Notes under the pieces: generated by a model
The model's input: only the letters and a program-made list of their open reading frames with translations
What the model was told of the DNA's origin: nothing
Databases searched by the model: none
Shown here: piece after piece, positions 21,304 to 53,744 of the stretch
How the letters are laid out: each line of letters starts with the position of its first letter
Position numbering within the stretch: the stretch's first letter is position 1
NCBI GenBank assembly: GCA_964016885.1
Contig: OZ024761.1
Span: 16,988,001-17,052,000 of the forward strand
DNA length: 64,000 nucleotides
Origin: Eledone cirrhosa
Lineage: Eukaryota
Reading direction: 5' to 3'
Program-made: the position numbers and the translations under genes

Positions 21304-21343
<40 letters not shown>

Positions 21344-22932: not shown

Positions 22933-24156
22933 TAATGATATAACAACAGTATATAATAGTTTTCTCCACTTTATTGAGATGCAAACGTTTTAAAGAAAAA
23001 ACATGACAGTATAAGAAATATTTAATATCATAACATATAATATTTCAGGTAGGATGGTCGTTTCTCTTGTCTTCCACCTCTAGTTGTAGATTCTTCATGT
23101 CCTCTCTAGCCATAATTACGTCGTCGACATATGCACACGTTTGATTTCTTCTTGAACGAATTGCAAATCTTGAGGTAGCCTTCTTGGTACATTTATTAGC
23201 TTTAATTCGTGTTTACACTGCTTGTAATAATTCGTACGTTTTTTACTTTAGATGAAACATATATATAAGAACGTCTGTGGCTTTAGTATACCTTTAAGTT
23301 TGATTTCAATAGAAAAATACTTACTGAACATGTGTAACACAATTATAACTGGAGCTACTAAGTTCCTAGCCACTAGAAAATATATTTGATAGAAGTTATT
23401 TCTTAGTTCTATGCACTGTCAATATCCCTTCTACTTTTTATATGCTTGTGTTTGTTAAAGAAACATTCTCTGATTTAGAAACCACGATCTTCTCGCACCA
23501 CCGTTGTAGTAATTCTTGTTAAATGTTTTGTCTGGTCTATTGTCAATAAGTGGCCTTGTTTTCTGATTATTAATAAAGTTAAGTGGTCTACTGAATTGTC
23601 TTCATTAAGGGCGGTGGATTGGCAGTATCGGTAGAGGCTCGGACGCTATGCTTTCCAGCATAGTTACGTCCCTTTACGATCTGAGTTCAATTCCCGCCGA
23701 GGTTGACTTTGCCTTTCATCCTTACGGGGTCGATAAAATAAAGTACCAGTAATGCACTGAGTAATTGCTGGCCTTGTGCCTAAAGTAGAAACAATTATTG
23801 CCTATTTATAAATTTTGTTTAACTGCCGATAACTTTAAAATGTATTTCTTAGGTTGCTTAGGCCTACAAACCTTATATCAGTGTCCCTTCTTTTGACACT
23901 TTCTACGAGTGAATCCTTAAATTGACATTTTATTTTGGGTTGTACTGCCTTATCCCACCTATAACAGCTTGAAGCAGGTATAGTAAAAACAGGTCCTTGA
24001 CTGTGGAGACTAATATGAGTTATGTTGAATATACTTGTTGAGGTTTATTCAATCTAAGAGAAGAAAAAGGAATTATAAGTAAAGTGCAAAATAAATCGGC
24101 TGCTTTTAAACCTAGAGGAGGGGAGGATTGACTTAGTCAGGTTTAAATGCCCACAT
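22933..24156 (-). mobile_element. Gypsy remnant, unit 4 (interrupted by the SINE)
   Basis: TCAYVDDVIMA variant; YVDD at 23120-23131. Confidence 0.75.
23608..23793 (+). mobile_element. Full-length tRNA-derived SINE (octopus-type) inserted in unit 4
   Basis: Absent from the same site in other units (empty site TTCATTATTGCC). It has an A-box-like TGGCAGTATCGG, a B-box GAGTTCAATTCC, a central GACTTTGCCTTTCATCCTTACGGGGTCGATAAAATAAAGTACCAG domain, a 3' GCTGGCCTTGTGCCTAAAGTAGAAACA end and a 4-bp ATTA duplication. The match to abundant Octopus SINEs is from memory, not from a search. Confidence 0.9.
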
Positions 24157-27100
24157 GACGGTAATTACGGCACCCCTACAACAACAGTTAAGTGTCTATA
24201 ACCACCACGCATTTATGAGACTAAAAACCTTGCTAGTGTATTTTTATTTTGGTACAAAAGTTTTTAAATTCAAGTAAGTCCAATATAATGTATTTAAACG
24301 AATCTATAGATAGGATTTCAATATCTGCCAGAGCTTATGAAATAGTAAAACAATTTTTTTTTTTCAATTGTGTCAAATACCAAAAGTTGTTCTTTATTAA
24401 AGAAATGCTAAAATAGATTTAGTTAGTATGACTCTGAACTGTGTTCAGAAACGGTAATGTTATGTTTTGCTGAGAGCCTGTCTGTCTTACAGTATGTTTA
24501 CACACAATACATACATGCATATACATAAATTAATTGTTTATTAGCTATATTCATCTGTTTACACTCCTCGTAATAATTCGAGCGGTTTTGTTTTTGTTTT
24601 TTCTTCAGGAGAGACGTAAATAGAAAAACGTTTGTGGCTTTAGTATTGCTTATTTTTAAGTTTTGTTTAATTGCCGATAAATTTGAAATATATTTGTTAG
24701 GTTTCTTAGAACTACAAATCTTTCTTATGACACTTACTACGGAATAAATTCTTAGCTGGATACTTTACTTTGAATCAGATGTAGCAAAAACTTGTGAAGA
24801 CTGACATGAGTTATGTTGAATATAAGTGTAGACGTCAAATATTTTTGTTTATTCAATCTAAAGGGAAGGCAAAAGAATTATAAGTCAAGTGCAAAATTAA
24901 CGTTTAAAGGCATAAGAAAGGTATCTCGCTTTCTCTCCTGTAAAATAAATAGGCTGTTTTTAGACCAGGAGGATGGGAGGATTGACTCAGTCAGATTTAA
25001 ATGCACACATGACGGTAAATACGACAGTCCTACAACAACAGTTAAGTGTCTATGACAACCATGCATTTAAGAGACTGAAAACCTTACTAATTTGTTTTTA
25101 TTTTGGTACTTGAAAACAAAATTTAAAAACAAATTATATATTTAATTTCCTGTAAGTCAAATACAATGTATTTAAATGAATCTACAGATGGAGTTGCAAT
25201 ATCTGCCAGGACTTTGGAAATAGGGAAATATATAATTTTAAAAATTAAAACTACTTTTCAAAGGAATAATAAAGATATATATACACACACACACAGACAT
25301 CTCTAGTGGAGATATTTCTGAGATTGGAAACCCTATCGATGTATGTATTTTGTCACTGAAAAGTTATCAAAAAATTATTATTATATATACATGTTTGTGT
25401 TTTTGACGTAAGTAAAACGAATCTATATACGAGGTTTTCGATACCTGCCAGAGCTTATGAAATAGTAAAAGAATATTTTTATTTTTCAATTATGTCAAAC
25501 ATCGTATGTGGTTCTTTATTAAAGAAATGCTAAAATAGATTTAAATATATGAAATTTGCACAGTAGAATTACGGCCGCTTGGCGGGCGTCTGGTAAAGTG
25601 GTGGTAGTGTAGGTTCGAGCGGAGGGGAAACTAAAAAGGTGGCTCAGAGATGATCGTGGCCCCGGGTAGCTCAGAAGATAGAGACCAATCTCTTAAATTA
25701 AAACAATAAAAATGTTTTAAACATAAGATAAAGTAGAAGATCGAAACCCTATCTCCAAATCTATACACACTCAATTGATGCATAGATACACCACAACTAC
25801 CCACACGACCACCTACAGACCAACAATTACGGAGTGAAAATAAACACATTTAAAGCTATTTTATTGTTAGACTAAAAATAAGTTTATATATGTAAATATT
25901 CAAAAGAAAATCACTTAAGTCTTTATAGTCTAGTGGTAAGACATAAGACTGGGGAATGCCGTGTTTGGATTTCGAATCAACTTAAAACATTAATTTTTTT
26001 TATCCTCACACTGTAAGGAATTTGTTTGATTTGAACACGTCGTCATACCATTTAAAGCTTTATTTTTCTCTTTCTAGTGGTAACACAGTCAGCATATAAA
26101 TAAACGTGATTCACTTCAACACGTTGCCATACCATTTAAAACTTTATTTGGAGATGAGACAAAGACACATAAATACACCAAGTAGTAAACCCTTGATTTA
26201 ACTTACTATGAAGATGAAGAATGTCTTAATATCAAAGTGACGTTAAATTTAGGGGCCACTTTCATTGTTTTTAATTTACAGAAACTCCTTAATATAACAC
26301 AATATACAAGATATATATATCAGAAGGAATATTTTTTATTTTCTTGTTCCGTCAAACCTTGCGTTTATTCTACACACACACACACGTCGAAACACTTGCT
26401 TGAGGTGGCTTTCTTAGACATAATGAAAAGTGTTGGCTTTGTGGAGATTGATACAACTTTGGGTGATGTTACGAGGAGGGGCAAGGCTATGGAGAGTGTC
26501 TTAGTGGAAGAGATGATATCAGAGCAGTAACCTCCAAAGAGATGAAATTAGTGACTGAGATGCTATCATTGCATAGTTAAGAATATATATAACAAACATA
26601 TACTATAAATTTAACAAGTCAAACTACAGTTATACTCTAACACGGAAGACAAATAAAACTTTACCTCTATCATGCACGTCGTATCCAGTGTGTTGTTATA
26701 AGAAAACCGGTGAAACACTAAATATGCCACCAGTGTAGCGATTTTATACTCTCTCTGCTTCATCGTACCACCCAGTAACATGAAACTGTGTTCAAATCCC
26801 TGGGTGGTAGAATTACGTCGCTTTAAAATAAACACACTGGGGTCAGTTTGAATATTGATTTCATGTGAAAAATATAAACATATTATGATTGTACTCCGAA
26901 CTATCAATATTGAAACAATTCTAATGCGCCAATAAAATTTATATATATATACAGCAACAGTGTTTTCGATCTTTCTTACTTTTTTTATTCACATTCTACA
27001 GTCACTTTAACTCTGTAATAAAAGCCAACACGAGACGAACGTTAACTGCAGTTACCCCCCACGAAATTAACGCACACACAAATGAATATACTACGAAAAT

Positions 27101-27952
27101 GTATTTAAAATAAAAAAATAAATACTTAAATTCAATGTATGTATAATTACACATACAATATGTTTTGTTGTAAAACCCTAAATAATGATTTAAGAAATGA
27201 TGTCAATCTTTGTACAGAGATAAACATTAATTTATGTATATGCATTGTGTGTGCGTATATACTCCATTTAAGACAGCGAAAAAACCAGTACCTCCTTCGA
27301 AGAATGCCAAATAGCTTATGCCTCAGGGATACCGGTGTAACACTAATTAAGTTACCGGTGTAGATATTTCAGTTGAACCCTGCTTCAACAAACTACCCGG
27401 TAATTTGAAATCGAGTTTAGAGTGAGGGGTGTAAAACAGAATTCTGTTTGGAAAATAGTAAATTCTAAACCTGCTAGAAATAGCAGCCAAATGTCGTACT
27501 TTGGGTACGAGGTGCGACTCGTCTTACCTCTTCTAATATATATATATAAATATATATGTGTGTGTGTGTATATATATATATATGCGTATGTAGATTCACG
27601 GGTCGCGCCGGGGAGAAACCACAATAAATACAATGTACTCAATAGATTGGCACAGTATATATATATGTGTGTTTATACATATAAATATATGTGTGTGTGT
27701 ATGTATATATATATATATGTATAAATGCATATATACATATAAATACTTATATATATACATAAACATATGTATACATACACACATATATAGATATATATGT
27801 GTGTATGTATATATATATCTGTGTGTCTATTTCTATATATATATATATAAATATATATAATTATTACTTAGGTTCTAAGGAATATCCCGCGAATGTCGGG
27901 GTTTACTGTATATATATATATATATGTATGTATATACATATTTATTACTTTC

Positions 27953-28313
27953 ACTGTTATTTCTAGCATGAAAAAGAAAAACCGGAAGAGGAGAAAATTG
28001 AAAAACATCTTCTTTTTCCCCCCTTTAACTTTTCAAACAAAAGAGAATTTTATGTAAACAAAAACGAAATTTTTGCCAAGAAAGATAACTCTTCTCTGAC
28101 TTAAATCCAAAATTGGGATACAAAAAGAATTCAGCAATTTTTTGTATCCCAATTTTGGATTTAAGTCAGAGAAGAGTTATCTTTCTTGGCAAAAATTTCG
28201 TTTTTGTTTACATAAAATTCTCTTTTGTTTGAAAAGTTAAATGGGGGAAAAAGAAGATGTTTTTCAATTTTCTCCCCTTCCGGTTTTTTCTAGTGTATAC
28301 TAGAAATAGCAGT
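27953..28313. repeat. 361-bp palindrome, unit 5
   Basis: Same as unit 1. Confidence 0.95.
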
Positions 28314-28791
28314 CAAAGCAATATATATATGCCTTTTGTGACAATATATATTGTTTTAACGCTAGATTATTAACAACAATATATTGTATTTGTTGGCCTA
28401 TTGGACGCAGAAGACGCTCACTCGATTTTTATTATATTTTACGTTGTATATTGAGGTTTATAGGCTTTTCTATGGACCACCTACAATATTCGCGATTTTT
28501 CTCTATTCTCGGGTTCTCTAGGACTGTAAACCCCACGAATGCCGGGGGGTAAATGTATATGAATATATCGACTAATAATATACAGTATAATTGTACGAGT
28601 ATGCATATACATAGCAATGTATATACATATTTACACATATATGTACATATATATATATATAGACACACATGTATATATATATATATATAGACACACATGT
28701 ATATATATATTTATATATATATGCATGTATGTATGTATGTATATATGTATACATATATATACATATATATATATGCATGTATGTATATATG

Positions 28792-28851
<60 letters not shown>

Positions 28852-29335
28852 GACATGTGTGTGTATGTACATTCTTAGGTATATACATATATATTTATAC
28901 ACACATACATACAAATATATATATTTCTATGAGTCCCGGCTTATTACACATTTTTAGCAGATTTAGAAACTTTGCAAACGCTTTATTTTTTCTTATTGCC
29001 GGTACTCTGAACACGATTTGAAATGACTGGAGTGAGTTTATAAAAGGGTAAACTGAAATAGTTGCACCGGTAATATATTTAGTGTTACACCGGTATTTTC
29101 GAAACAATCTCTTTCGCATTCGTCTGCAAGCGGTAACGTTTTCTATGCCGTCTCTGGTAGTGTAGAACTGTAGGTTGACTTGCTTGGGTTTTACAAATGT
29201 TTGTCAACATGCATATTATTATTATATACTTTCAAACACACTTACATATATTATATTTATAAACATATAGGATTTTACTAAGTTTTTATTCTTTCTAATG
29301 TGAAGAGATAGAAATAATAAGTTAAAGCTAAAGTA

Positions 29336-30369
29336 TAATGATATAACAACAGTATATAATAGTTTTCTCCACTTTATTGAGATGCAAACGTTTTAAAGAA
29401 AAAACATGACAGTATAAGAAATATTTAATATCATAACATATAATATTTCAGGTAGGATGGTCGTTTCTCTTGTCTTCCACCTCTAGTTGTAGATTCTTCA
29501 TGTCCTCTCTAGCCATAATTATGTCGTCGACATATGCATAAGTTTGATTTCTTCTTGAATGAATTGCAAATCTTGAGGTAGCCTTCTTGGTACATTTATT
29601 AGCTTTAATTCGTGTTTACACTGCTTGTAATAATTCGTACGTTTTTTACTTTAGATGAAACATATATATAAAAACGTCTGTGGCTTTAGTATACCTTTAA
29701 GTTTGATTTCAATAGAAAAATACTTACTGAACATGTGTAACACAATTATAACTGGAGCTACTAAGTTCCTAGCCACTAGAAAATCTATTTGATAGAAGTT
29801 ATTTCTTAGTTCTATGCACTGTCAATATCCCTTCTACTTTTTATATGCTTGTGTTTGTTAAAGAAACATTCTCTGATTTAGAAACCACGATCTTCTCGCA
29901 CCACCGTTGTAGTAATTCTTGTTAAATGTTTTGTCTGGTCTATTGTCAATAAGTGGCCTTGTTTTCTGATTATTAATAAAGTTAAGTGGTCTACTGAATT
30001 GTCTTCATTATTGCCTATTTATAAGTTTTGTTTAACTGCCGATAACTTTAAAATGTATTTCTTAGGTTGCTTAGGCCTACAAACCTTATATCAGTGTCCC
30101 TTCTTTTGACACTTTCTACGAGTGAATCCTTAAATTGACATTTTATTTTGGGTTGTACTGCCTTATCCCACCTATAACAGCTTGAAGCAGATATAGTAAA
30201 AACAGGTCCTTGACTGTGGAGACTAATATGAGTTATGTTGAATATACTTGTTGAGGTTTATTCAATCTAAGAGAAGAAAAAGGAATTATAAGTAAAGTGC
30301 AAAATAAATCGGCTGCTTTTAAACCTAGAGGAGGGGAGGATTGACTTAGTCAGGTTTAAATGCCCACAT
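29336..30369 (-). mobile_element. Gypsy remnant, unit 5
   Basis: YVDD at 29523-29534. Confidence 0.75.
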
Positions 30370-33300
30370 GACGGTAATTACGGCACCCCTACAACAACAG
30401 TTAAGTGTCTATAACCACCACGCATTTATGAGACTAAAAACCTTGCTAGTGTATTTTTATTTTGGTACAAAAGTTTTTAAATTCAAGTCCAATATAATGT
30501 ATTTAAACGAATCTATAGATAGGATTTCAATATCTGCCAGAGCTTATGAAATAGTAAAACAATTTTTTTTTTTCAATTATGTCAAATACCAAAAGTTGTT
30601 CTTTATTAAAGAAATGCTAAAATAGATTTAGTTAGTATGACTCTGAACTGTGTTCAGAAACGGTAATGTTATGTTTTGCTGAGAGCCTGTCTGTCTTACA
30701 GTATGTTTACACACAATACATACATGCATATACATAAATTAATTGTTTATTAGCTATATTCATCTGTTTACACTCCTCGTAATAATTCGAGCGGTTTTGT
30801 TTTTGTTTTTTCTTCAGGAGAGACGTAGATAGAAAAACGTTTGTGGCTTTAGTATTGCTTATTTTTAAGTTTTGTTTAATTGCCGATAAATTTGAAATAT
30901 ATTTGTTAGGTTTCTTAGAACTACAAATCTTTCTTATGACACTTACTACGGAATAAATTCTTAGCTGGATACTTTACTTTGAATCAGATGTAGCAAAAAC
31001 TTGCGAAGACTGACATGAGTTATGTTGAATATAAGTGTAGACGTCAAATATTTTTGTTTATTCAATCTAAAGGGAAGGCAAAAGAATTATAAGTCAAGTG
31101 CAAAATTAACGTTTAAAGGCATAAGAAAGGTATCTCGCTTTCTCTCCTGTAAAATAAATAGGCTGTTTTTAGACCAGGAGGATGGGAGGATTGACTCAGT
31201 CAGATTTAAATGCACACATGACGGTAAATACGACAGTCCTACAACAACAGTTAAGTGTCTATAACAACCATGCATTTAAGAGACTGAAAACCTTACTAAT
31301 TTGTTTTTATTTTGGTACTTGAAAACAAAATTTAAAAACAAATTATATATTTAATTTCCTGTAAGTAACATACAATGTATTTAAATGAATCTACAGATGG
31401 AGTTGCAATATCTGCCAGGACTTTGGAAATAGGGAAATATATAATTTTTTAAATTAAAACTACTTTTCAAAGGAATAATAAAGATATATATACACACACA
31501 CACACAGACATCTCTAGTGGAGATATTTCTGAGATTGGAAACCCTATCGATGTATGTATTTTGTCACTGAAAAGTTATCAAAAAATTATTATTATATATA
31601 CATGTTTGTGTTTTTGACGTAAGTAAAACGAATCTATATACGAGGTTTTCGATACCTGCCAGAGCTTATGAAATAGTAAAAGAATATTTTTATTTTTCAA
31701 TTATGTCAAACATCGTATGTGGTTCTTTATTAAAGAAATGCTAAAATAGATTTAAATATATGAAATTTGCACAGTAGAATTACGGCCGCTTGGCGGGCGT
31801 CTGGTAAAGTGGTGGTAGTGTAGGTTCGAGCGGAGGGGAAACGAAAAAGGTGGCTCAGAGATGATCGTGGCCCCGGGTAGCTCAGAAGATAGAGACCAAT
31901 CTCTTAAATTAAAACAATAAAAATGTTTTAAACATAAGATAAAGTATAAGATCGAAACCCTATCTCCAAATCTATACACACTCAATAGATGCATAGATAC
32001 ACCACAACTACCCACACGACCACCTACAGACCAACAATTACGGAGTGAAAATAAACACATTTAAAGCTATTTTATTGTTAGACTAAAAATAAGTTTATAT
32101 ATGTAAATATTCAAAAGAAAATCACTTAAGTCTTTATAGTCTAGTGGTAAGACGTAGCACTGGGGAATGCCGTGTTTGGATTTCGAATCAACTTAAAACA
32201 TTAATTTTTTTTATCCTCACACTGTAAGGAATTTGTTTGATTTGAACACGTCGTCATACCATTTAAAGCTTTATTTTTCTCTTTCTAGTGGTAACACAGT
32301 CAGCATATAAATAAACGTGATTCACTTCAACACGTTGCCATACCATTTAAAACTTTATTTGGAGATGAGACAAAGACACATAAATACACCAAGTAGTAAA
32401 CCCTTGATTTAACTTACTATGAAGATGAAGAATGTCTTAATATCAAAGTGACGTTAAATTTAGGGGCCACTTTCATTGTTTTTAATTTACAGAAACTCCT
32501 TAATATAACACAATATACAAGATATATATATCAGAAGGAATATTTTTTATTTTCTTGTTCCGTCAAACCTTGCGTTTATTCTACACACACACACACACGT
32601 CGAAACACTTGCTTGAGGCGGCTTTCTTAGACATAATGAAAAGTGTTGGCTTTGTGGAGATTGATACAACTTTGGGTGATGTTACGAGGAGGAGCAAGGC
32701 TATGGAGAGTGTCTTAGTGGAAGAGATGATATCAGAGCAGTAACCTCCAAAGAGATGAAATTAGTGACTGAGATGCTATCATTGCATAGTTAAGAATATA
32801 TATAACAAACATATACTATAAATTTAACAAGTCAAACTACAGTTATACTCTAACACAGAAGACAAATAAAACTTTACCTCTATCATGCACGTCGTATCCA
32901 GTGTGTTGTTATAAGAAAACCGGTGAAACACTAAATATGCCACCAGTGTAGCGATTTTATACTCTCTCTGCTTCATCGTACCACCCAGTAACATGAAACT
33001 GTGTTCAAATCCCTGGGTGGTAGAATTACGTCGCTTTAAAATAAACACACTGGGGTCAGTTTGAATATTGATTTCATGTGAAAAATATAAACATATTATG
33101 ATTGTACTCCGAACTATCAATATTGAAACAATTCTAATGCGCCAATAAAATTTATATATATATACAGCAACAGTGTTTTCGATCTTTCTTACTTTTTTTA
33201 TTCACATTCTACAGTCACTTTAACTCTGTAATAAAAGCCAACACGAGACGAACGTTAACTGCAGTTACCCACGAAATTAACGCACACACAAATGAATATA

Positions 33301-34178
33301 CTACGAAAATGTATTTAAAATAAAAAAATAAATACTTAAATTCAATGTATGTATAATTACACATACAATATGTTTTGTTGTAAAACCCTAAATAATGATT
33401 TAAGAAATGATGTCAATCTTTGTACAGAGATAAACATTAATTTATGTATATGCATTGTGTGTGCGTATATACTCCATTTAAGACAGCGAAAAAACCAGTA
33501 CCTCCTTCGAAGAATGCCAAATAGCTTATGCCTCAGGGATACCGGTGTAACACTAATTAAGTTACCGGTGTAGATATTTCAGTTGAACCCTGCTTCAACA
33601 AACTACCCGGTAATTTGAAATCGAGTTTAGAGTGAGGGGTGTAAAACAGAATTCTGTTTGGAAAATAGTGAATTCTAAACCTGCTAGAAATAGCAGCCAA
33701 ATGTCGTACTTTGGGTACGAGGTGCGACTCGTCTTACCTCTTCTAATATATATATATATATATAAATATATATGTGTGTGTGTGTATATATATATATATG
33801 CGTATGTAGATTCACGGGTCGCGCCGGGGAGAAACCACAATAAATACAATGTACTCAATAGATTGGCACAGTATATATATATATGTGTGGGTGTGTGTGT
33901 ACATATAAATATGTGTGTGTGTGTGTGTGTGTGTGTATGTATATATATGTATAAATGCATATATACATATAAATACTTATATATATACATAAACATATGT
34001 ATACATACACACATATATAGATATATATGTGTGTATATATATATATCTGTGTGTCTATTTCTATATATATATATAAATATATATAATTATTACTTAGGTT
34101 CTAAGGAATATCCCGCGAATGTCGGGGTTTACTGTATATATATATATATATGTATGTATATACATATTTATTACTTTC

Positions 34179-34539
34179 ACTGTTATTTCTAGCATGAAAA
34201 AGAAAAACCGGAAGAGGAGAAAATTGAAAAACATCTTCTTTTTCCCCCCTTTAACTTTTCAAACAAAAGAGAATTTTATGTAAACAAAAACGAAATTTTT
34301 GCCAAGAAAGATAACTCTTCTCTGACTTAAATCCAAAATTGGGATACAAAAAGAATTCAGCAATTTTTTGTATCCCAATTTTGGATTTAAGTCAGAGAAG
34401 AGTTATCTTTCTTGGCAAAAATTTCGTTTTTGTTTACATAAAATTCTCTTTTGTTTGAAAAGTTAAAGGGGGGAAAAAGAAGATGTTTTTCAATTTTCTC
34501 CCCTTCCGGTTTTTTCTAGTGTATACTAGAAATAGCAGT
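34179..34539. repeat. 361-bp palindrome, unit 6
   Basis: Same as unit 1. Confidence 0.95.
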
Positions 34540-35017
34540 CAAAGCAATATATATATGCCTTTTGTGACAATATATATTGTTTTAACGCTAGATTATTAAC
34601 AACAATATATTGTATTTGTTGGCCTATTGGACGCAGAAGACGCTCACTCGATTTTTATTATATTTTACGTTGTATATTGAGGTTTATAGGCTTTTCTATG
34701 GACCACCTACAATATTCGCGATTTTTCTCTATTCTCGGGTTCTCTAGGACTGTAAACCCCACGAATGCCGGGGGGTAAATGTATATGAATATATCGACTA
34801 ATAATATACAGTATAATTGTACGAGTATGCATATACATAGCAATGTATATACATATTTACACATATATGTACATATATATATATATAGACACACATGTAT
34901 ATATATATATATATAGACACACATGTATATATATATTTATATATATATGCATGTATGTATGTATGTATATATGTATACATATATATACATATATATATAT
35001 GCATGTATGTATATATG

Positions 35018-35065
<48 letters not shown>

Positions 35066-35573
35066 GACATGTGTGTGTATGTACATTCTTAGGTATATAC
35101 ATATATATTTATACACACATACATACAAATATATATATTTCTATGAGTCCCGGTTTATTACACATTGGAGACAGAGTGAGAGATTTAGCTTTCATTTTTA
35201 GCAGATTTAGAAACTTTGCAAAAGCTTTATTTTTTCTTATTGCCGGTACTCTGAACACGATTTGAAATGACTGGAGTGAGTTTATAAAAGGGTAAACTGA
35301 AATAGTTGCACCGGTAATATATTTAGTGTTACACCGGTATTTTCGAAACAATCTCTTTCGCAGTTGTCTGCAAGCGGTAACGTTTTCTATGCCGTCTCTG
35401 GTAGTGTAGAACTGTAGGTTGACTTGCTTGGGTTTTACAAATGTTTGTCAACATGCATATTATTATTATATACTTTCAAACACACTTACATATATTATAT
35501 TTATAAACATATAGGATTTTACTAAGTTTTTATTCTTTCTAATGTGAAGAGATAGAAATAATAAGTTAAAGTA

Positions 35574-36607: not shown

Positions 36608-39600
36608 GACGGTAATTACGGCACCCCTACAACAACAGTTAAGTGTCTATAACCACCACGCATTTATGAGACTAAAAACCTTGCTAGTGTATTTTTATTT
36701 TGGTACAAAAGTTTTTAAATTCAAGTCCAATATAATGTATTTAAACGAATCTATAGATAGGATTTCAATATCTGCCAGAGCTTATGAAATAGTAAAACAA
36801 TTTTTTTTTTTCAATTATGTCAAATACCAAAAGTTGTTCTTTATTAAAGAAATGCTAAAATAGATTTAGTTAGTATGACTCTGAACTGTGTTCAGAAACG
36901 GTAATGTTATGTTTTGCTGAGAGCCTGTCTGTCTTACAGTATGTTTACACACAATACATACATGCATATACATAAATTAATTGTTTATTAGCTATATTCA
37001 TCTGTTTACACTCCTCGTAATAATTCGAGCGGTTTTGTTTTTGTTTTTTCTTCAGGAGAGACGTAGATAGAAAAACGTTTGTGGCTTTAGTATTGCTTAT
37101 TTTTAAGTTTTGTTTAATTGCCGATAAATTTGAAATATATTTGTTAGGTTTCTTAGAACTACAAATCTTTCTTATGACACTTACTACGGAATAAATTCTT
37201 AGCTGGATACTTTACTTTGAATCAGATGTAGCAAAAACTTGCGAAGACTGACATGAGTTATGTTGAATATAAGTGTAGACGTCAAATATTTTTGTTTATT
37301 CAATCTAAAGGGAAGGCAAAAGAATTATAAGTCAAGTGCAAAATTAACGTTTAAAGGCATAAGAAAGGTATCTCGCTTTCTCTCCTGTAAAATAAATAGG
37401 CTGTTTTTAGACCAGGAGGATGGGAGGATTGACTCAGTCAGATTTAAATGCACACATGACGGTAAATACGACAGTCCTACAACAACAGTTAAGTGTCTAT
37501 AACAACCATGCATTTAAGAGACTGAAAACCTTACTAATTTGTTTTTATTTTGGTACTTGAAAACAAAATTTAAAAACAAATTATATATTTAATTTCCTGT
37601 AAGTAACATACAATGTATTTAAATGAATCTACAGATGGAGTTGCAATATCTGCCAGGACTTTGGAAATAGGGAAATATATAATTTTTTAAATTAAAACTA
37701 CTTTTCAAAGGAATAATAAAGATATATATACACACACACACACAGACATCTCTAGTGGAGATATTTCTGAGATTGGAAACCCTATCGATGTATGTATTTT
37801 GTCACTGAAAAGTTATCAAAAAATTATTATTATATATACATGTTTGTGTTTTTGACGTAAGTAAAACGAATCTATATACGAGGTTTTCGATACCTGCCAG
37901 AGCTTATGAAATAGTAAAAGAATATTTTTATTTTTCAATTATGTCAAACATCGTATGTGGTTCTTTATTAAAGAAATGCTAAAATAGATTTAAATATATG
38001 AAATTTGCACAGTAGAATTACGGCCGCTTGGCGGGCGTCTGGTAAAGTGGTGGTAGTGTAGGTTCGAGCGGAGGGGAAACTAAAAAGGTGGCTCACAGAT
38101 GATCGTGGCCCCGGGTAGCTCAGAAGATAGAGACCAATCTCTTAAATTAAAACAATAAAAATGTTTTAAACATAAGATAAAGTAGAAGATCGAAACCCTA
38201 TCTCCAAATCTATACACACTCAATTGATGCATAGATACACCACAACTACCCACACGACCACCTACAGACCAACAATTACGGAGTGAAAATAAACACATTT
38301 AAAGCTATTTTATTGTTAGACTAAAAATAAGTTTATATATGTAAATATTCAAAAGAAAATCACTTAAGTCTTTATAGTCTAGTGGTAAGACGTAGCACTG
38401 GGGAATGCCGTGTTTGGATTTCGAATCAACTTAAAACATTAATTTTTTTTATCCTCACACTGTAAGGAATTTGTTTGATTTGAACACGTCGTCATACCAT
38501 TTAAAGCTTTATTTTTCTCTTTCTAGTGGTAACACAGTCAGCATATAAATAAACGTGATTCACTTCAACACGTTGCCATACCATTTAAAACTTTATTTGG
38601 AGATGAGACAAAGACACATAAATACACCAAGTAGTAAACCCTTGATTTAACTTACTATGAAGATGAAGAATGTCTTAATATCAAAGTGACGTTAAATTTA
38701 GGGGCCACTTTCATTGTTTTTAATTTACAGAAACTCCTTAATATAACACAATATACAAGATATATATATCAGAAGGAATATTTTTTATTTTCTTGTTCCG
38801 TCAAACCTTGCGTTTATTCTACACACACACACGTCGAAACACTTGCTTGAGGTGGCTTTCTTAGACATAATGAAAAGTGTTGGCTTTGTGGAGATTGATA
38901 CAACTTTGGGTGATGTTACGAGGAGGAGCAAGGCTATGGAGAGTGTCTTAGTGGAAGAGATGATATCAGAGCAGTAACCTCCAAAGAGATGAAATTAGTG
39001 ACTGAGATGCTATCATTGCATAGTTAAGAATATATATAACAAACATATACTATAAATTTAACAAGTCAAACTACAGTTATACTCTAACACAGAAGACAAA
39101 TAAAACTTTACCTCTATCATGCACGTCGTATCCAGTGTGTTGTTATAAGAAAACCGGTGAAACACTAAATATGCCACCAGTGTAGCGATTTTATACTCTC
39201 TCTGCTTCATCGTACCACCCAGTAACATGAAACTGTGTTCAAATCCCTGGGTGGTAGAATTACGTCGCTTTAAAATAAACACACTGGGGTCAGTTTGAAT
39301 ATTGATTTCATGTGAAAAATATAAACATATTATGATTGTACTCCGAACTATCAATATTGAAACAATTCTAATGCGCCAATAAAATTTATATATATATACA
39401 GCAACAGTGTTTTCGATCTTTCTTACTTTTTTTATTCACATTCTACAGTCACTTTAACTCTGTAATAAAAGCCAACACGAGACGAACGTTAACTGCAGTT
39501 ACCCACGAAATTAACGCACACACAAATGAATATACTACGAAAATGTATTTAAAATAAAAAAATAAATACTTAAATTCAATGTATGTATAATTACACATAC

Positions 39601-40137
39601 AATATGTTTTGTTGTAAAACCCTAAATAATGATTTAAGAAATGATGTCAATCTTTGTACAGAGATAAACATTAATTTATGTATATGCATTGTGTGTGCGT
39701 ATATACTCCATTTAAGACAGCGAAAAAACCAGTACCTCCTTCGAAAAATGCCAAATAGCTTATGCCTCAGGGATACCGGTGTAACACAAATTAAGTTACC
39801 GGTGTAGATATTTCAGTTGAACCCTGCTTCAACAAACTACCCGGTAATTTGAAATCGAGTTTAGAGTGAGGGGTGTAAAACAGAATTCTGTTTGGAAAAT
39901 AGTAAATTCTAAACCTGCTAGAAACAGCAGCCAAATGTCGTACTTTGGGTACGAGGTGCGACTCGTCTTACCTCTTCTAATATATATATATAAATATATA
40001 TGTGTGTGTGTGTGTATATATATATGCGTATGTAGATTCACGGGTCGCGCCGGGGAGAAACCACAATAAATACAATGTACTCAATAGATTGGCACAGTAT
40101 ATATATATATGTGTGGGTGTGTGTGTACATATAAATA

Positions 40138-40168
<31 letters not shown>

Positions 40169-40408
40169 ATATATATGTATAAATGCATATATACATATAA
40201 ATACTTATATATATACATAAACATATGTATACATACACACATATATAGATATATATGTGTGTATATATATATATATCTGTGTGTCTATTTCTATATATAT
40301 ATATAAATATATATAATTATTACTTAGGTTCTAAGGAATATCCCGCGAATGTCGGGGTTTACTGTATATATATATATATATGTATGTATATACATATTTA
40401 TTACTTTC

Positions 40409-40769
40409 ACTGTTATTTCTAGCATGAAAAAGAAAAACCGGAAGAGGAGAAAATTGAAAAACATCTTCTTTTTCCCCCCTTTAACTTTTCAAACAAAAGA
40501 GAATTTTATGTAAACAAAAACGAAATTTTTGCCAAGAAAGATAACTCTTCTCTGACTTAAATCCAAAATTGGGATACAAAAAGAATTCAGCAATTTTTTG
40601 TATCCCAATTTTGGATTTAAGTCAGAGAAGAGTTATCTTTCTTGGCAAAAATTTCGTTTTTGTTTACATAAAATTCTCTTTTGTTTGAAAAGTTAAAGGG
40701 GGGAAAAAGAAGATGTTTTTCAATTTTCTCCCCTTCCGGTTTTTTCTAGTGTATACTAGAAATAGCAGT
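40409..40769. repeat. 361-bp palindrome, unit 7
   Basis: Same as unit 1. Confidence 0.95.
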
Positions 40770-41749
40770 CAAAGCAATATATATATGCCTTTTGTGACAA
40801 TATATATTGTTTTAACGCTAGATTATTAACAACAATATATTGTATTTGTTGGCCTATTGGACGCAGAAGACGCTCACTCGATTTTTATTATATTTTACGT
40901 TGTATTTTGAGGTTTATAGGCATTTCTATGGACCACCTACAATATTCGCGATTTTTCTCTATTCTCGGGTTCTCTAGGACTGTAAACCCCACGAATGCCG
41001 GGGGGTAACTGTATATGAATATATCGACTGATAATATACAGTATAATTGTACGAGTATGCATATACATAGCAATGTATATACATATTTACACATATATGT
41101 ACATATATATATATATATAGACACACATGTATATATATATATATATATAGACACACATGTATATATATATTTATATATATATGCATGTATGTATGTATGT
41201 ATATATGTATATATATATATATATATACATAGACATGTGTGTGTGTGTATGTACATTCTTAGGTATATACATATATATTTATACACACATACATACAAAT
41301 ATATATATTTCTATGAGTCTCGGTTTATTACACATTGGAGACAGAGTGAGAGATTTAGCTTTCATTTTTAGCAGATTTAGAAACTTTGCAAACGCTTTAT
41401 TTTTTCTTATTGCCGGTACTCTGAACACGATTTGAAATGACTGGAGTGAGTTTATAAAAGGGTAAACTGAAATAGTTGCACCGGTAATATATTTAGTGTT
41501 ACACCGGTATTTTTGAAACAATCTCTTTTGCATTCGTCTGCACGCGGTAACGTTTTCTATGCCGTCTCTGGTAGTGTAGAACTGTAGGTTGACTTGCTTG
41601 GGTTTTACAAATGTTTGTCAACATGCATATTATTATTATATACTTTCAAACACACTTACATATATTATATTTATAAACATATAGGATTTTACTAAGTTTT
41701 TATTCTTTCTAATGTGAAGAGATAGAAATAATAAGTTAAAGCTAAAGTA

Positions 41750-42783
41750 TAATGATATAACAACAGTATATAATAGTTTTCTCCACTTTATTGAGATGCA
41801 AACGTTTTAAAGAAAAAACATGACAGTATAAGAAATATTTAATATCATAACATATAATATTTCAGGTAGGATGGTCGTTTCTCTTGTCTTCCACCTCTAG
41901 TTGTAGATTCTTCATGTCCTCTCTAGCCATAATTACGTCGTCGACATATGCACACGTTTGATTTCTTCTTGAACGAATTGCAAATCTTGAGGTAGCCTTC
42001 TTGGTACATTTATTAGCTTTAATTCGTGTTTACACTGCTTGTAATAATTCGTACGTTTTTTACTTTAGATGAAACATATATATAAGAACGTCTGTGGCTT
42101 TAGTATACCTTTAAGTTTGATTTCAATAGAAAAATACTTACTGAACATGTGTAACACAATTATAACTGGAGCTACTAAGTTCCTAGCCACTAGAAAATAT
42201 ATTTGATAGAAGTTATTTCTTAGTTCTATGCACTGTCAATATCCCTTCTACTTTTTATATGCTTGTGTTTGTTAAAGAAACATTCTCTGATTTAGAAACC
42301 ACGATCTTCTCGCACCACCGTTGTAGTAATTCTTGTTAAATGTTTTGTCTGGTCTATTGTCAATAAGTGGCCTTGTTTTCTGATTATTAATAAAGTTAAG
42401 TGGTCTACTGAATTGTCTTCATTATTGCCTATTTATAAGTTTTGTTTAACTGCCGATAACTTTAAAATGTATTTCTTAGGTTGCTTAGGCCTACAAACCT
42501 TATATCAGTGTCCCTTCTTTTGACACTTTCTACGAGTGAATCCTTAAATTGACATTTTATTTTGGGTTGTACTGCCTTATCCCACCTATAACAGCTTGAA
42601 GCAGGTATAGTAAAAACAGGTCCTTGACTGTGGAGACTAATATGAGTTATGTTGAATATACTTGTTGAGGTTTATTCAATCTAAGAGAAGAAAAAGGAAT
42701 TATAAGTAAAGTGCAAAATAAATCGGCTGCTTTTAAACCTAGAGGAGGGGAGGATTGACTTAGTCAGGTTTAAATGCCCACAT
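41750..42783 (-). mobile_element. Gypsy remnant, unit 7
   Basis: YVDD at 41937-41948. Confidence 0.75.
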
Positions 42784-45700
42784 GACGGTAATTACGGCAC
42801 CCCTACAACAACAGTTAAGTGTCTATAACCACCACGCATTTATGAGACTAAAAACCTTGCTAGTGTATTTTTATTTTGGTACAAAAGTTTTTAAATTCAA
42901 GTAAGTCCAATATAATGTATTTAAACGAATCTATAGATAGGATTTCAATATCTGCCAGAGCTTATGAAATAGTAAAACAATTTTTTTTTTTCAATTGTGT
43001 CAAATACCAAAAGTTGTTCTTTATTAAAGAAATGCTAAAATAGATTTAGTTAGTATGACTCTGAACTGTGTTCAGAAACGGTAATGTTATGTTTTGCTGA
43101 GAGCCTGTCTGTCTTACAGTATGTTTACACACAATACATACATGCATATACATAAATTAATTGTTTATTAGCTATATTCATCTGTTTACACTCCTCGTAA
43201 TAATTCGAGCGGTTTTGTTTTTGTTTTTTCTTCAGGAGAGACGTAAATAGAAAAACGTTTGTGGCTTTAGTATTGCTTATTTTTAAGTTTTGTTTAATTG
43301 CCGATAAATTTGAAATATATTTGTTAGGTTTCTTAGAACTACAAATCTTTCTTATGACACTTACTACGGAATAAATTCTTAGCTGGATACTTTACTTTGA
43401 ATCAGATGTAGCAAAAACTTGTGAAGACTGACATGAGTTATGTTGAATATAAGTGTAGACGTCAAATATTTTTGTTTATTCAATCTAAAGGGAAGGCAAA
43501 AGAATTATAAGTCAAGTGCAAAATTAACGTTTAAAGGCATAAGAAAGGTATCTCGCTTTCTCTCCTGTAAAATAAATAGGCTGTTTTTAGACCAGGAGGA
43601 TGGGAGGATTGACTCAGTCAGATTTAAATGCACACATGACGGTAAATACGACAGTCCTACAACAACAGTTAAGTGTCTATGACAACCATGCATTTAAGAG
43701 ACTGAAAACCTTACTAATTTGTTTTTATTTTGGTACTTGAAAACAAAATTTAAAAACAAATTATATATTTAATTTCCTGTAAGTCAAATACAATGTATTT
43801 AAATGAATCTACAGATGGAGTTGCAATATCTGCCAGGACTTTGGAAATAGGGAAATATATAATTTTTAAAATTAAAACTACTTTTCAAAGGAATAATAAA
43901 GATATATATACACACACACACAGACATCTCTAGTGGAGATATTTCTGAGATTGGAAACCCTATCGATGTATGTATTTTGTCACTGAAAAGTTATCAAAAA
44001 ATTATTATTATATATACATGTTTGTGTTTTTGACGTAAGTAAAACGAATCTATATACGAGGTTTTCGATACCTGCCAGAGCTTATGAAATAGTAAAAGAA
44101 TATTTTTATTTTTCAATTATGTCAAACATCGTATGTGGTTCTTTATTAAAGAAATGCTAAAATAGATTTAAATATATGAAATTTGCACAGTAGAATTACG
44201 GCCGCTTGGCGGGCGTCTGGTAAAGTGGTGGTAGTGTAGGTTCGAGCGGAGGGGAAACTAAAAAGGTGGCTCAGAGATGATCGTGGCCCCGGGTAGCTCA
44301 GAAGATAGAGACCAATCTCTTAAATTAAAACAATAAAAATGTTTTAAACATAAGATAAAGTAGAAGATCGAAACCCTATCTCCAAATCTATACACACTCA
44401 ATTGATGCATAGATACACCACAACTACCCACACGACCACCTACAGACCAACAATTACGGAGTGAAAATAAACACATTTAAAGCTATTTTATTGTTAGACT
44501 AAAAATAAGTTTATATATGTAAATATTCAAAAGAAAATCACTTAAGTCTTTATAGTCTAGTGGTAAGACATAAGACTGGGGAATGCCGTGTTTGGATTTC
44601 GAATCAACTTAAAACATTAATTTTTTTTATCCTCACACTGTAAGGAATTTGTTTGATTTGAACACGTAGTCATACCATTTAAAGCTTTATTTTTCTCTTT
44701 CTAGTGGTAACACAGTCAGCATATAAATAAACGTGATTCACTTCAACACGTTGCCATACCATTTAAAACTTTATTTGGAGATGAGACAAAGACACATAAA
44801 TACACCAAGTAGTAAACCCTTGATTTAACTTACTATGAAGATGAAGAATGTCTTAATATCAAAGTGACGTTAAATTTAGGGGCCACTTTCATTGTTTTTA
44901 ATTTACAGAAACTCCTTAATATAACACAATATACAAGATATATATATCAGAAGGAATATTTTTTATTTTCTTGTTCCGTCAAACCTTGCGTTTATTCTAC
45001 ACACACACACACGTCGAAACACTTGCTTGAGGTGGCTTTCTTAGACATAATGAAAAGTGTTGGCTTTGTGGAGATTGATACAACTTTGGGTGATGTTACG
45101 AGGAGGGGCAAGGCTATGGAGAGTGTCTTAGTGGAAGAGATGATATCAGAGCAGTAACCTCCAAAGAGATGAAATTAGTGACTGAGATGCTATCATTGCA
45201 TAGTTAAGAATATATATAACAAACATATACTATAAATTTAACAAGTCAAACTACAGTTATACTCTAACACGGAAGACAAATAAAACTTTACCTCTATCAT
45301 GCACGTCGTATCCAGTGTGTTGTTATAAGAAAACCGGTGAAACACTAAATATGCCACCAGTGTAGCGATTTTATACTCTCTCTGCTTCATCGTACCACCC
45401 AGTAACATGAAACTGTGTTCAAATCCCTGGGTGGTAGAATTACGTCGCTTTAAAATAAACACACTGGGGTCAGTTTGAATATTGATTTCATGTGAAAAAT
45501 ATAAACATATTATGATTGTACTCCGAACTATCAATATTGAAACAATTCTAATGCGCCAATAAAATTTATATATATATACAGCAACAGTGTTTTCGATCTT
45601 TCTTACTTTTTTTTATTCACATTCTACAGTCACTTTAACTCTGTAATAAAAGCCAACACGAGACGAACGTTAACTGCAGTTACCCACGAAATTAACGCAC

Positions 45701-46315
45701 ACACAAATGAATATACTACGAAAATGTATTTAAAATAAAAAAATAAATACTTAAATTCAATGTATGTATAATTACACATACAATATGTTTTGTTGTAAAA
45801 CCTTAAATAATGATTTAAGAAATGATGTCAATCTTTGTACAGAGATAAACATTAATTTATGTATATGCATTGTGTGTGCGTATATACTCCATTTAAGACA
45901 GCGAAAAAACCAGTACCTCCTTCGAAGAATGCCAAATAGCTTATGCCTCAGGGATACCGGTGTAACACTAATTAAGTTACCGGTGTAGATATTTCAGTTG
46001 AACCCTGCTTCAACAAACTACCCGGTAATTTGAAATCGAGTTTAGAGTGAGGGGTGTAAAACAGAATTCTGTTTGGAAAATAGTAAATTCTAAACCTGCT
46101 AGAAATAGCACCCAAATGTCGTACTTTGGGTACGAGGTGCGACTCGTCTTACCTCTTCTAATATATATATATAAATATATATGTGTGTGTGTATATATAT
46201 ATATATGCGTATGTAGATTCACGGGTCGCGCCGGGGAGAAACCACAATAAATACAATGTACTCAATAGATTGGCACAGTATATATATATATGTGTGGTTG
46301 TGTGTGTACATATAA

Positions 46316-46361
<46 letters not shown>

Positions 46362-46601
46362 ATATATATGTATAAATGCATATATACATATAAATACTTA
46401 TATATATACATAAACATATGTATACATACACACATATATAGATATATATGTGTGTATATATATATATATCTGTGTGTCTATTTCTATATATATATATAAA
46501 TATATATAATTATTACTTAGGTTCTAAGGAATATCCCGCGAATGTCGGGGTTTACTGTATATATATATATATATGTATGTATATACATATTTATTACTTT
46601 C

Positions 46602-46962
46602 ACTGTTATTTCTAGCATGAAAAAGAAAAACCGGAAGAGGAGAAAATTGAAAAACATCTTCTTTTTCCCCCCTTTAACTTTTCAAACAAAAGAGAATTTT
46701 ATGTAAACAAAAACGAAATTTTTGCCAAGAAAGATAACTCTTCTCTGACTTAAATCCAAAATTGGGATACAAAAAGAATTCAGCAATTTTTTGTATCCCA
46801 ATTTTGGATTTAAGTCAGAGAAGAGTTATCTTTCTTGGCAAAAATTTCGTTTTTGTTTACATAAAATTCTCTTTTGTTTGAAAAGTTAAAGGGGGGAAAA
46901 AGAAGATGTTTTTCAATTTTCTCCCCTTCCGGTTTTTTCTAGTGTATACTAGAAATAGCAGT
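46602..46962. repeat. 361-bp palindrome, unit 8
   Basis: Same as unit 1. Confidence 0.95.
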
Positions 46963-47440
46963 CAAAGCAATATATATATGCCTTTTGTGACAATATATAT
47001 TGTTTTAACGCTAGATTATTAACAACACTATATTGTATTTGTTGGCCTATTGGACGCAGAAGACGCTCACTCGATTTTTATTATATTTTACGTTGTATTT
47101 TGAGGTTTATAGGCTTTTCTATGGACCACCTACAATATTCGCGATTTTTCTCTATTCTCGGGTTCTCTAGGACTGTAAACCCCACGAATGCCGGGGGGTA
47201 ACTGTATATGAATATATCGACTAATAATATACAGTATAATTGTACGAGTATGCATATACATAGCAATGTATATACATATTTACACATATATGTACATATA
47301 TATATATATAGACACACATGTATATATATATATATATAGACACACATGTATATATATATTTATATATATATGCATGTATGTATGTATGTATATATGTATA
47401 CATATATATACATATATATATATGCATGTATGTATATATG

Positions 47441-47476
<36 letters not shown>

Positions 47477-48008
47477 TATACATAGACATGTGTGTGTGTG
47501 TATGTACATTCTTAGGTATATACATATATATTTATACACACATACATACAAATATATATATTTCTATGAGTCCCGGTTTATTACACATTGGAGACAGAGT
47601 GAGAGATTTAGCTTTCATTTTTAGCAGATTTAGAAACTTTGCAAACGCTTTATTTTTTCTTATTGCCGGTACTCTGAACACGATTTGAAATGACTGGAGT
47701 GAGTTTATAAAAGGGTAAACTGAAATAGTTGCACCGGTAATATATTTAGTGTTACACCGGTATTTTTGAAACAATCTCTTTCGCATTCGTCTGCAAGCGG
47801 TAACGTTTTCTATGCCGTCTCTGGTAGTGTAGAACTGTAGGTTGACTTGCTTGGGTTTTACAAATGTTTGTCAACATGCATATTATTATTATTATTATAT
47901 ACTTTCAAACACACTTACATATATTATATTTATAAACATATAGGATTTTACTAAGTTTTTATTCTTTCTAATGTGAAGAGATAGAAATAATAAGTTAAAG
48001 CTAAAGTA

Positions 48009-49098
48009 TAATGATATAACAACAGTATATAATAGTTTTCTCCACTTTATTGAGATGCAAACGTTTTAAAGAAAGAACATGACAGTATAAGAAATATTTA
48101 ATATCATAACATATAATATTTCAGGTAGGATGGTCGTTTCTCTTGTCTTCCACCTCTAGTTGTAGATTCTTCATGTCCTCTCTAGCCATAATTATGTCGT
48201 CGACATATGCATAAGTTTGATTTCTTCTTGAATGAATTGCAAATCTTGAGGTAGCCTTCTTGGTACATTTATTAGCTTTAATTCGTGTTTACACTGCTTG
48301 TAATAATTCGTACGTTTTTTACTTTAGATGAAACATATATATAAAAACGTCTGTGGCTTTAGTATACCTTTAAGTTTGATTTCAATAGAAAAATACTTAC
48401 TGAACATGTGTAACACAATTATAACTGGAGCTACTAAGTTCCTAGCCACTAGAAAATCTATTTGATAGAAGTTATTTCTTAGTTCTATGCACTGTCAATA
48501 TCCCTTCTACTTTTTATATGCTTGTGTTTGTTAAAGAAACATTCTCTGATTTAGAAACCACGATCTTCTCGCACCACCGTTGTAGTAATTCTTGTTAAAT
48601 GTTTTGTCTGGTCTATTGTCAATAAGTGGCCTTGTTTTCTGATTATTAATAAAGTTAAGTGGTCTACTGAATTGTCTTCATTATTGCCTATTTATGCACT
48701 GGATAATTGCTGGCCTTGTGCCTAAAGTAGAAACAATTATTGCCTATTTATAAGTTTTGTTTAACTGCCGATAACTTTAAAATGTATTTCTTAGGTTGCT
48801 TAGGCCTACAAACCTTATATCAGTGTCCCTTCTTTTGACACTTTCTACGAGTGAATCCTTAAATTGACATTTTATTTTGGGTTGTACTGCCTTATCCCAC
48901 CTATAACAGCTTGAAGCAGATATAGTAAAAACAGGTCCTTGACTGTGGAGACTAATATGAGTTATGTTGAATATACTTGTTGAGGTTTATTCAATCTAAG
49001 AGAAGAAAAAGGAATTATAAGTAAAGTGCAAAATAAATCGGCTGCTTTTAAACCTAGAGGAGGGGAGGATTGACTTAGTCAGGTTTAAATGCCCACAT
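48009..49098 (-). mobile_element. Gypsy remnant, unit 8 (interrupted by the truncated SINE)
   Basis: YVDD at 48196-48207. Confidence 0.75.
48696..48735 (+). mobile_element. 5'-truncated copy (3'-terminal 40 bp) of the same SINE in unit 8, with a 16-bp TSD
   Basis: GCACTGGATAATTGCTGGCCTTGTGCCTAAAGTAGAAACA is flanked by the direct repeat ATTATTGCCTATTTAT (48680-48695 and 48736-48751). It matches the 3' end of the 23608 element except GAGT vs GGAT. Confidence 0.9.

Positions 49099-53708: not shown

Positions 53709-53744
<36 letters not shown>

What the first reader, a model, noticed from the sequence alone, without database searches (positions are those of the whole stretch)
23604..48751. Two apparently independent SINE insertions at the same position in different repeat units
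Seen: unit 4 has a full-length SINE (23608-23793, 4-bp ATTA duplication) and unit 8 has only its 3' 40 bp (48696-48735, 16-bp TSD). Both have the same 3' junction ...GTAGAAACA|ATTATTGCCTATTTAT. They differ in TSD length, in internal sequence (GCACTGAGTAA vs GCACTGGATAA) and in host haplotype, so deletion of one to give the other is unlikely. Known: in target-primed reverse transcription, the first-strand nick or priming site fixes the 3' junction, while the second nick and truncation vary. Inference: the only two insertions in ~62 kb hit one site of a 6.2 kb unit, although other ATTATT tracts are available (e.g. ~4163-4180). This suggests a SINE and partner LINE endonuclease that target this macrosatellite, analogous to R1/R2 in rDNA.
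Basis: partly seen in the sequence, partly recalled or inferred. Interest (0 to 1): 0.8.

Follow-up and report, generated by a model that had tools for sequence, protein, structure and literature searches.

The report
SINE lands twice at one site
A very common jumping repeat sits at the same spot in two of ten copies of a 6-kb tandem unit, likely because it inserted twice at a favoured landing site, but it is scattered across the genome and so is not a specialist of this array.

Summary
The window is about 10 copies of a 6.2-kb unit. Two of ten equivalent sites carry the same tRNA-type SINE: full length in unit 4, a 40-bp 3' piece with a 16-bp duplication in unit 8. The host units differ at 26 of 3,767 columns, and each has near-identical empty sisters (2-4 differences in ~3,800).

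The R1/R2 analogy fails. Public runs show a huge dispersed family (133,573 contigs laid in one run) with unrelated 3' flanks. Those copies also end in ATTATT, so the 'identical junction' is fixed only to within six bases shared by tail and target.

Tail pairing alone gives this site at most 0.7% of insertions in my model (4% in a flat one), so some extra site preference is likely. About 9-10% of counted 3' ends lie directly before another copy, which fits re-use of sites but also tandem duplication.

Best reading: two independent insertions at a hot spot, like the twice-used sites in human NF1 (0.62). Main rival: one insertion partly copied by break repair (0.17). The partner LINE was not found, and no reads confirming either allele were seen.

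The parts
1..64000 (.). Tandem array of a 6.2-kb unit (site spacing 6176-6403 bp, 96-99.9% identity), about 10.3 copies, running off both window ends
23604..23607 (+). Left part of the target kept before the unit-4 SINE (apparent 4-bp duplication; true length uncertain because of tail-target overlap)
23608..23793 (+). Full-length SINE, short form (lacks the ~32-39 nt segment that many genomic copies carry between 23759 and 23763)
23610..23700 (+). tRNA-type head: A-box-like 23620-23631 (1 mismatch to a recalled consensus), B box 23685-23693 (exact); folds as a long hairpin, z = -5.45; not called as a tRNA gene
23794..23799 (+). ATTATT shared by SINE tail and target; genomic copies align through 23799 and then diverge
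   Evidence: table 7
23794..23809 (+). Intact 16-bp target after the unit-4 SINE; a private base change follows at +19
48680..48695 (+). Left copy of the 16-bp duplication in unit 8 (last 2 bases also fit the SINE)
48696..48735 (+). 5'-truncated SINE, last 40 bp, two adjacent differences from the unit-4 copy
48736..48751 (+). Right copy of the 16-bp duplication in unit 8
42421..42436 (+). Empty sister of the unit-4 site (3 differences in 3,800 columns)
61134..61149 (+). Empty sister of the unit-4 site (4 differences in 3,800 columns)
11184..11199 (+). Empty sister of the unit-8 site (2 differences in 3,797 columns)
4963..4978 (+). Empty sister of the unit-8 site (4 differences in 3,790 columns)
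17409..17424 (+). Empty site (further empty sites start at 30007, 36245 and 54948)

Best explanation
A dispersed, very high-copy tRNA-type SINE with an ATT tail sits at the same site in two distinct units of the array, likely by two separate target-primed insertions at a site that its partner enzyme is predicted to favour. Inferred mechanism: a LINE endonuclease (likely RTE clade, not found) nicks the bottom strand at or within ATTATT; the freed end pairs with the RNA's AUU tail and primes copying; the second nick and the extent of copying differed, giving a full-length copy with a 0-4 bp duplication in unit 4 and a 40-bp copy with an 8-16 bp duplication in unit 8. The preference would be a genome-wide, short-motif one, and the array simply offers the same good site many times. 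Shown: structures, haplotypes, dispersal, tail identity. Inferred: independence, priming, enzyme, hot spot.
For: Host units differ at 26 of 3,767 columns, each differs from its empty sisters at 2-4 of ~3,800; a tree holding the two together is rejected, p-AU 5e-47. The two SINE pieces differ at two adjacent bases; at the sister divergence about 0.04 changes are expected in 42 bp (my arithmetic), and genomic copies vary at exactly 23758-23761 (tables 4 and 7). The unit-8 duplication is of normal size (RTE: mostly 7-15 bp, PMC6007223) with a 2-base 5' overlap. Family dispersed with an ATT tail; 14,290 of 133,573 contigs in X1 are 99% or more alike, so young copies are common. Tail-to-SINE joints with 0-40 letters between: 190 contigs against 1,966 loose 3' ends in X1 (8.8%) and 24 against 211 in X4 (10.2%), versus 0.1-1.2% by chance; the four spacers shown are 3, 11, 12 and 17 letters and the second copy starts at many places, the geometry of unit 8. 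Precedent: three NF1 sites each used twice, one with different duplication lengths; 6 of 66 disease sites reused (PMC3219598, passages).
Against: Only two events. Tail pairing alone ranks this site 9th in the unit and gives it at most 0.7%, while longer ATT tracts are unhit, so the extra preference is assumed, not shown. The strict RTE signature (TTT about 10 bases upstream) is not met here, though 32 of 165 T|ATT sites in the unit meet it. The head-to-tail copies could be tandem duplications of SINE plus duplication rather than new insertions (lead e1-629088, untested), and the counts come from 15 of 525 joint rows and 24 of 1,515 loose-end rows. Both copies carry no ATT beyond the target's own two, as a shared origin would also give. 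No partner LINE found.
Confidence: 0.62

Rival explanations
1. One insertion only. The unit-8 piece was copied from a SINE-bearing unit: after a break about 16 bases right of the site in an empty unit, the right end invaded a filled unit, copied 56 bases leftwards, and was end-joined on a 2-base overlap. Or a single original insertion moved between haplotypes by gene conversion and then lost parts by deletion.
For: Explains the same junction and same tail length with no site preference. The nearest sites that separate the haplotypes are at -222 and +185, so a short tract would leave no trace. Units are mosaics, so exchange is frequent. Extension of one end followed by end joining makes tandem duplications in C. 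elegans (PMC8654963, passages), and repair copies nearby DNA into breaks in vertebrates (PMC2671141, passages).
Against: Needs an adjacent two-base change in 42 bp in a very short time. The break must fall at a distance that mimics a normal duplication. Reported tracts are longer (duplications ~100 bp-10 kb, median ~1 kb, in a mutant; proximal captures median 147 bp, though that survey excluded short and tandem cases). None of 39 proximal captures had a target duplication in the table rows seen.
Confidence: 0.17
2. Two independent insertions, but the shared site is luck on top of a weak liking for ATT tracts; this site is no better than the other two dozen.
For: 26 ATT-phase tracts of 6 or more bases per unit give 1 in 26 in a flat model. 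The scan covers very many windows, so such coincidences will be picked up. Precise parallel SINE insertions make up 0.18-0.29% of cases in toothed whales (PMC10531181, passages).
Against: Under graded weights the site gets 0.02-0.7%. Copies behind copies are far more frequent than chance.
Confidence: 0.13
3. One reading: a SINE, or a young subfamily of it, with a sequence-specific partner LINE that targets this macrosatellite as R1/R2 target rDNA.
For: Both insertions in 64 kb share site and orientation; fixed 3' end with variable 5' end; both are the short form.
Against: Depth on the SINE is thousands of times that of the unit, 3' flanks are unrelated, and none of the 15 joint rows shown links SINE to unit flank. 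In X7, 31,420 of 51,062 plus-strand molecules are laid through to 23766, which suggests the short form is itself abundant (inference). Only 2 of 10 sites are filled and no LINE lies at the site. No gene or RNA family found in the unit.
Confidence: 0.05
4. The unit-8 structure is an assembly error.
For: No read support could be obtained: the runs found differ from the window at fixed sites and so are other individuals, and most rows were hidden.
Against: Unit 8 matches its sisters at all but 2-4 of ~3,800 columns, and the piece differs from the only other copy in the window at two bases; a misjoin would copy it exactly.
Confidence: 0.03

Closest known systems
Twice-used L1/Alu integration sites in human NF1 (PMC3219598) and precise parallel SINE insertions in whales (PMC10531181)
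   Same: A dispersed SINE found twice at one position, with different duplication lengths or variants.
   Different: Here the two hits are in paralogous units of one tandem array, not in different people or species; the tail is ATT, not poly(A); independence is inferred.
RTE-clade LINEs and their SINEs (PMC6007223, PMC13295347)
   Same: Microsatellite-like tail that overlaps the start of the target duplication; duplication of about 7-15 bp fits unit 8; a nick at T|A is possible.
   Different: No TTT about 10 bases upstream; the overlap is 6 bases where the paper reports one to several; no shared tail with an RTE could be shown; unit 4 has a duplication of 4 bp or less.
R1/R2, Utopia and other target-specific non-LTR elements (PMC4640811)
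   Same: Constant 3' end and variable 5' end at one site of a multicopy unit.
   Different: The family is dispersed; no gene was found in the unit; no autonomous element at the site.
Dong (R4 clade), which sits behind TAA repeats (PMC3774820)
   Same: Association with a repeat of two like bases and one other.
   Different: Dong has TAA on its sense strand; this SINE has ATT, the opposite strand; the longest tracts in the unit are unhit.
Octopus tRNA-derived SINEs (OK, OR1, OR2; Ohshima and Okada 1994, not read)
   Same: The element resembles octopod SINEs as I recall them; no call tested this.

Membership tests
tRNA-derived SINE | Short (<1 kb), interspersed, high copy | tested here: met
   186-192 bp; 133,573 contigs laid in X1, 10,260 in X4, unrelated 3' flanks
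tRNA-derived SINE | Pol III A and B boxes in the head | tested here: met
   B box exact, A box with 1 mismatch against recalled consensus patterns; ARAGORN and Rfam call no tRNA
tRNA-derived SINE | Simple-repeat tail and target duplication | tested here: met
   ATT tail; 8-16 bp duplication in unit 8, 4 bp or less in unit 4
tRNA-derived SINE | Transcribed by Pol III | not testable with these tools
   No RNA run was laid
R1/R2-type target-specific element | Most copies lie at one site of one repeat | tested here: not met
   SINE depth ~7,000x (X1) and ~3,000x (X7) the unit flank; flank agreement 0.38-0.46
R1/R2-type target-specific element | Constant 3' junction, variable 5' junction at the target | tested here: met
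   Two cases; junction fixed only to within 6 bases
R1/R2-type target-specific element | Target is a conserved multicopy gene or simple repeat | tested here: not met
   No tRNA, no Rfam match at the curated score, none of 8 frames scanned reaches a Pfam cut-off (8 of 75 frames listed)
R1/R2-type target-specific element | Autonomous partner with a sequence-specific endonuclease at the same site | tested here: inconclusive
   None in 10 sites of the window; no genome held; pattern scans empty or chance
RTE-mobilised SINE | 3' end shared with an RTE LINE | not testable with these tools
   No genome or repeat library held
RTE-mobilised SINE | Microsatellite tail matching the first bases of the duplication | tested here: met
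   ATT tail, duplication starts with ATT
RTE-mobilised SINE | Tn-TA signature: TTT about 10 bases upstream of a T|A cut | tested here: not met
   T|A possible, TTT absent at -13..-7; one site only, and the signature is statistical
Dong/R4-mobilised element | Insertion into TAA repeats read on the element's sense strand | tested here: not met
   Sense strand reads ATT; tracts of 11-18 bases in the unit are unhit

The most novel reading that the evidence does not exclude
A young short-form subfamily of this SINE rides a LINE whose endonuclease reads a longer sequence than the ATT tail, and this macrosatellite unit holds its best target, so that the array is hit at this one position again and again: a SINE-LINE pair part-way to R2-like specificity on a non-genic repeat.
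Probability: 0.07. Interest if true: 0.7.

Novelty: new member of a known kind. Interest (0 to 1): 0.27.

Why it matters
Re-use of one insertion site by a dispersed SINE is known from human disease genes and from phylogenetic homoplasy. This is a clean case inside one tandem array, where near-identical empty sisters show the state before insertion. Its use is practical: an array offers one target in many copies, so a full survey of it would measure how strongly an ATT-tailed SINE prefers one site, and it warns against treating such insertions as unique markers of array history. Only if many more insertions fall at this one position, and few elsewhere, would it point to a new kind of targeting.

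Tried and rejected
No whole genome is held, so flank logos and the partner LINE could not be built or found. Pattern scans for the SINE tail and body: 0 hits in metagenome contigs, 0 in viral contigs; 6 hits of a 19-mer in prokaryote genomes, against 4.3 expected by chance, none aligning over more than 36 bases: rejected. No RNA holder listed. Of 9 runs listed, 4 were laid; none of the rows shown holds either filled allele. Run X5 (organism B, 249 contigs) was too thin to use. Pile-ups of read ends at 23763, 23766 and 23796 in X7 fall on AATT and are likely restriction cuts of the RAD library, not element ends: rejected as biology. A 55-residue frame at 23048-23212 (minus) with a YVDD motif looked like a reverse-transcriptase remnant: no homologue, no relevant Pfam match, two hits to repetitive proteins whose scores are summed over 7-10 stretches: not supported. 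Rfam matches by E-value are all below the curated scores and nearly all on microsatellites or the palindrome. Earlier findings of this scan: nothing by place or sequence. A paper search for SINE insertions targeted to macrosatellites (20 of 43 papers listed, titles and abstract starts only) showed none; this is a thin search and no claim of absence. PMC11699766 (passages) was not relevant. SINEBase supplements could not be read; they bear on naming the family.
Full report
What is there. The window is a tandem array of a 6.2-kb unit. One anchor finds the same site ten times, at 4963, 11184, 17409, 23604, 30007, 36245, 42421, 48680, 54948 and 61134 (S1-S10). Eight are empty. S4 holds a 186-bp element (23608-23793) after the first four target bases and before the whole 16-bp target. 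S8 holds the last 40 bp of that element between two copies of the 16-bp target. No other SINE match exists in the window. The element has a B box and a near A box by recalled consensus patterns and a strongly folding head; it is not a tRNA gene. I found no gene in the unit: no Rfam match at the curated score and no Pfam match at cut-off in the 8 frames scanned of 75 listed.

Host haplotypes. Around the site, S4 groups with empty S7 and S10, and S8 with empty S1 and S2. Over 1,000 bases left and 2,800 right, S4 differs from S7 and S10 at 3 and 4 of 3,800 columns, S8 from S2 and S1 at 2 of 3,797 and 4 of 3,790, and S4 from S8 at 26 of 3,767. A tree that holds S4 and S8 together is rejected (p-AU 5e-47). 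So both structures are recent and sit on separate lineages. This rules out plain descent from one filled unit. It does not rule out a short conversion, because the nearest distinguishing sites are 222 bases left and 185 right.

The family is dispersed. No genome is held, so I laid 4 of 9 listed public runs on 22600-27500. Run X1 laid 133,573 contigs, X4 10,260, X5 249, X7 179,247 reads. Summed depth in the SINE bin is 7.9 million in X1 against 420-2,814 in the 28 flank bins. Copies align through 23799 and then diverge: 446 and 1,520 loose ends in X1, 211 in X4, 12 in X5, 6,148 in X7, with agreement 0.38-0.46 and an ATT-repeat consensus in X1 and X7. Two things follow. The SINE is not confined to this array, so the defining feature of R1/R2-type elements (PMC4640811, passages) is not met. 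And ATTATT is the SINE's own tail, so the shared junction is located only to within six bases, and both duplication lengths are upper bounds. Many copies carry a 32-39 nt segment that both array copies lack, and the family varies at 23758-23761, exactly where S4 and S8 differ. The call does not give the frequency of the exact S4 and S8 variants. The runs differ from the window at fixed sites, so they are other individuals; none of the 15 of 525 joint rows shown links the SINE to the unit flank.

How unlikely is the coincidence. Uniform insertion gives 8e-5, or 5.6e-4 with seven possible nicks. The unit has 26 ATT-phase tracts of six or more bases on both strands, 80 of five or more. Weighting sites by tail match gives this one 0.02-0.7% and rank 9 (rank 3 with no weighting), since longer tracts exist and are unhit. 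So tail pairing helps but does not account for the result. The strict RTE signature, TTT about ten bases upstream of a T|A cut (PMC6007223, parts 1-4 of 6 read; PMC13295347, abstract, results and section 4.1), is not met at this site.

Evidence that the family re-uses sites. Eleven of the 15 joint rows shown run from a SINE tail straight into another copy, full length or 5'-truncated. The three rows with 40 or fewer letters between hold 190 contigs against 1,966 loose 3' ends in X1 (8.8%) and 24 against 211 in X4 (10.2%); all eleven give 21% and 22%; chance is 0.1-1.2% for a family covering 1-12% of a genome. Raw reads show the joints too (168 reads from 19 starts for the commonest). The four spacers shown are 3, 11, 12 and 17 letters, the geometry of unit 8. 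This fits new insertions at the target left behind an older copy. It also fits tandem duplication of a SINE with its duplication, a lead from earlier finding e1-629088 that I could not test. The counts are partial, and X1 was not fully counted.

Mechanism. Most likely a LINE endonuclease nicked at ATTATT twice, in two units; the RNA tail paired with the freed end; second nick and copying length differed. Human NF1 has three sites each used twice, one with unequal duplications (PMC3219598, passages); precise parallel insertions make up 0.18-0.29% in toothed whales (PMC10531181, passages). The partner is likely RTE clade from the microsatellite tail and duplication size, but it was not found. 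Dong fits less well, since its TAA repeat is on the other strand (PMC3774820, passages). The element resembles octopod SINEs as I recall them; no call tested this. RTE and Dong LINEs are reported in octopus (PMC9115989 and PMC13282606, passages), which bears on this case only if the recall is right. PMC5786205, PMC4758252, PMC4824008 and PMC3531059 (passages) gave no sequence to compare.

Main rival. A break just right of the site in an empty unit, repaired by copying 56 bases from a filled unit and end joining, gives the unit-8 structure exactly, junction included (mechanism as in PMC8654963 and PMC2671141, passages). Against it: an adjacent two-base change in 42 bp where about 0.04 changes are expected, and a duplication that happens to have the normal size. 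I put it at 0.17.

Verdict. Observation confirmed; independence and some site preference likely; array-specific targeting not supported. A new member of a known kind (site re-use by a dispersed SINE), resting on two events. Interest 0.27.

Noticed in passing
window 21614-21925 and the same place in all ten units: A near-perfect palindrome (150-bp arms, 99% complementary, 12-bp loop) with further imperfect arms outside, 98.7-100% conserved across units; could be a fold-back or MITE-like element fixed in the unit.
   Followed up: partly
sites S4, S7, S10 (23604, 42421, 61134); units after S3, S6, S9: Haplotypes recur every third unit (about 18.7 kb), a higher-order repeat, overlaid with mosaic tracts that suggest gene conversion.
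   Followed up: partly
window 17400-17990, 18240-18860, 19040-19160, 23210-23320: The unit contains older internal duplications (65-90% alike). The two paralogues of the target segment lack the first ATT, so only one of three offers the tail match.
   Followed up: partly
window 23812: A base change private to unit 4 lies 19 bases right of the SINE junction, one of only two private changes in about 2,360 columns; it may have arisen with the insertion.
   Followed up: no
window 23746-23772: The two bases that differ between the copies lie at the top of a predicted hairpin, and the unit-8 truncation falls in its 5' arm (z = -1.15 for the 60-base piece, so weak).
   Followed up: partly
window 23759-23763, run data: The family has a long form with a 32-39 nt C-rich segment here and a short form without it; both array copies are short.
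   Followed up: partly
window 23644-23650 to 23608, run data: Some genomic copies repeat the first ~40 bases of the head in tandem (9 contigs in X1, 12 reads in X7).
   Followed up: no
window 23048-23212 minus strand: A 55-residue frame with a YVDD motif in every unit; no support as a reverse-transcriptase remnant.
   Followed up: yes
run X1 against window 22600-27500: That sample's array differs from the window at many sites in all its contigs, so the array has homogenised differently between individuals or close species.
   Followed up: no
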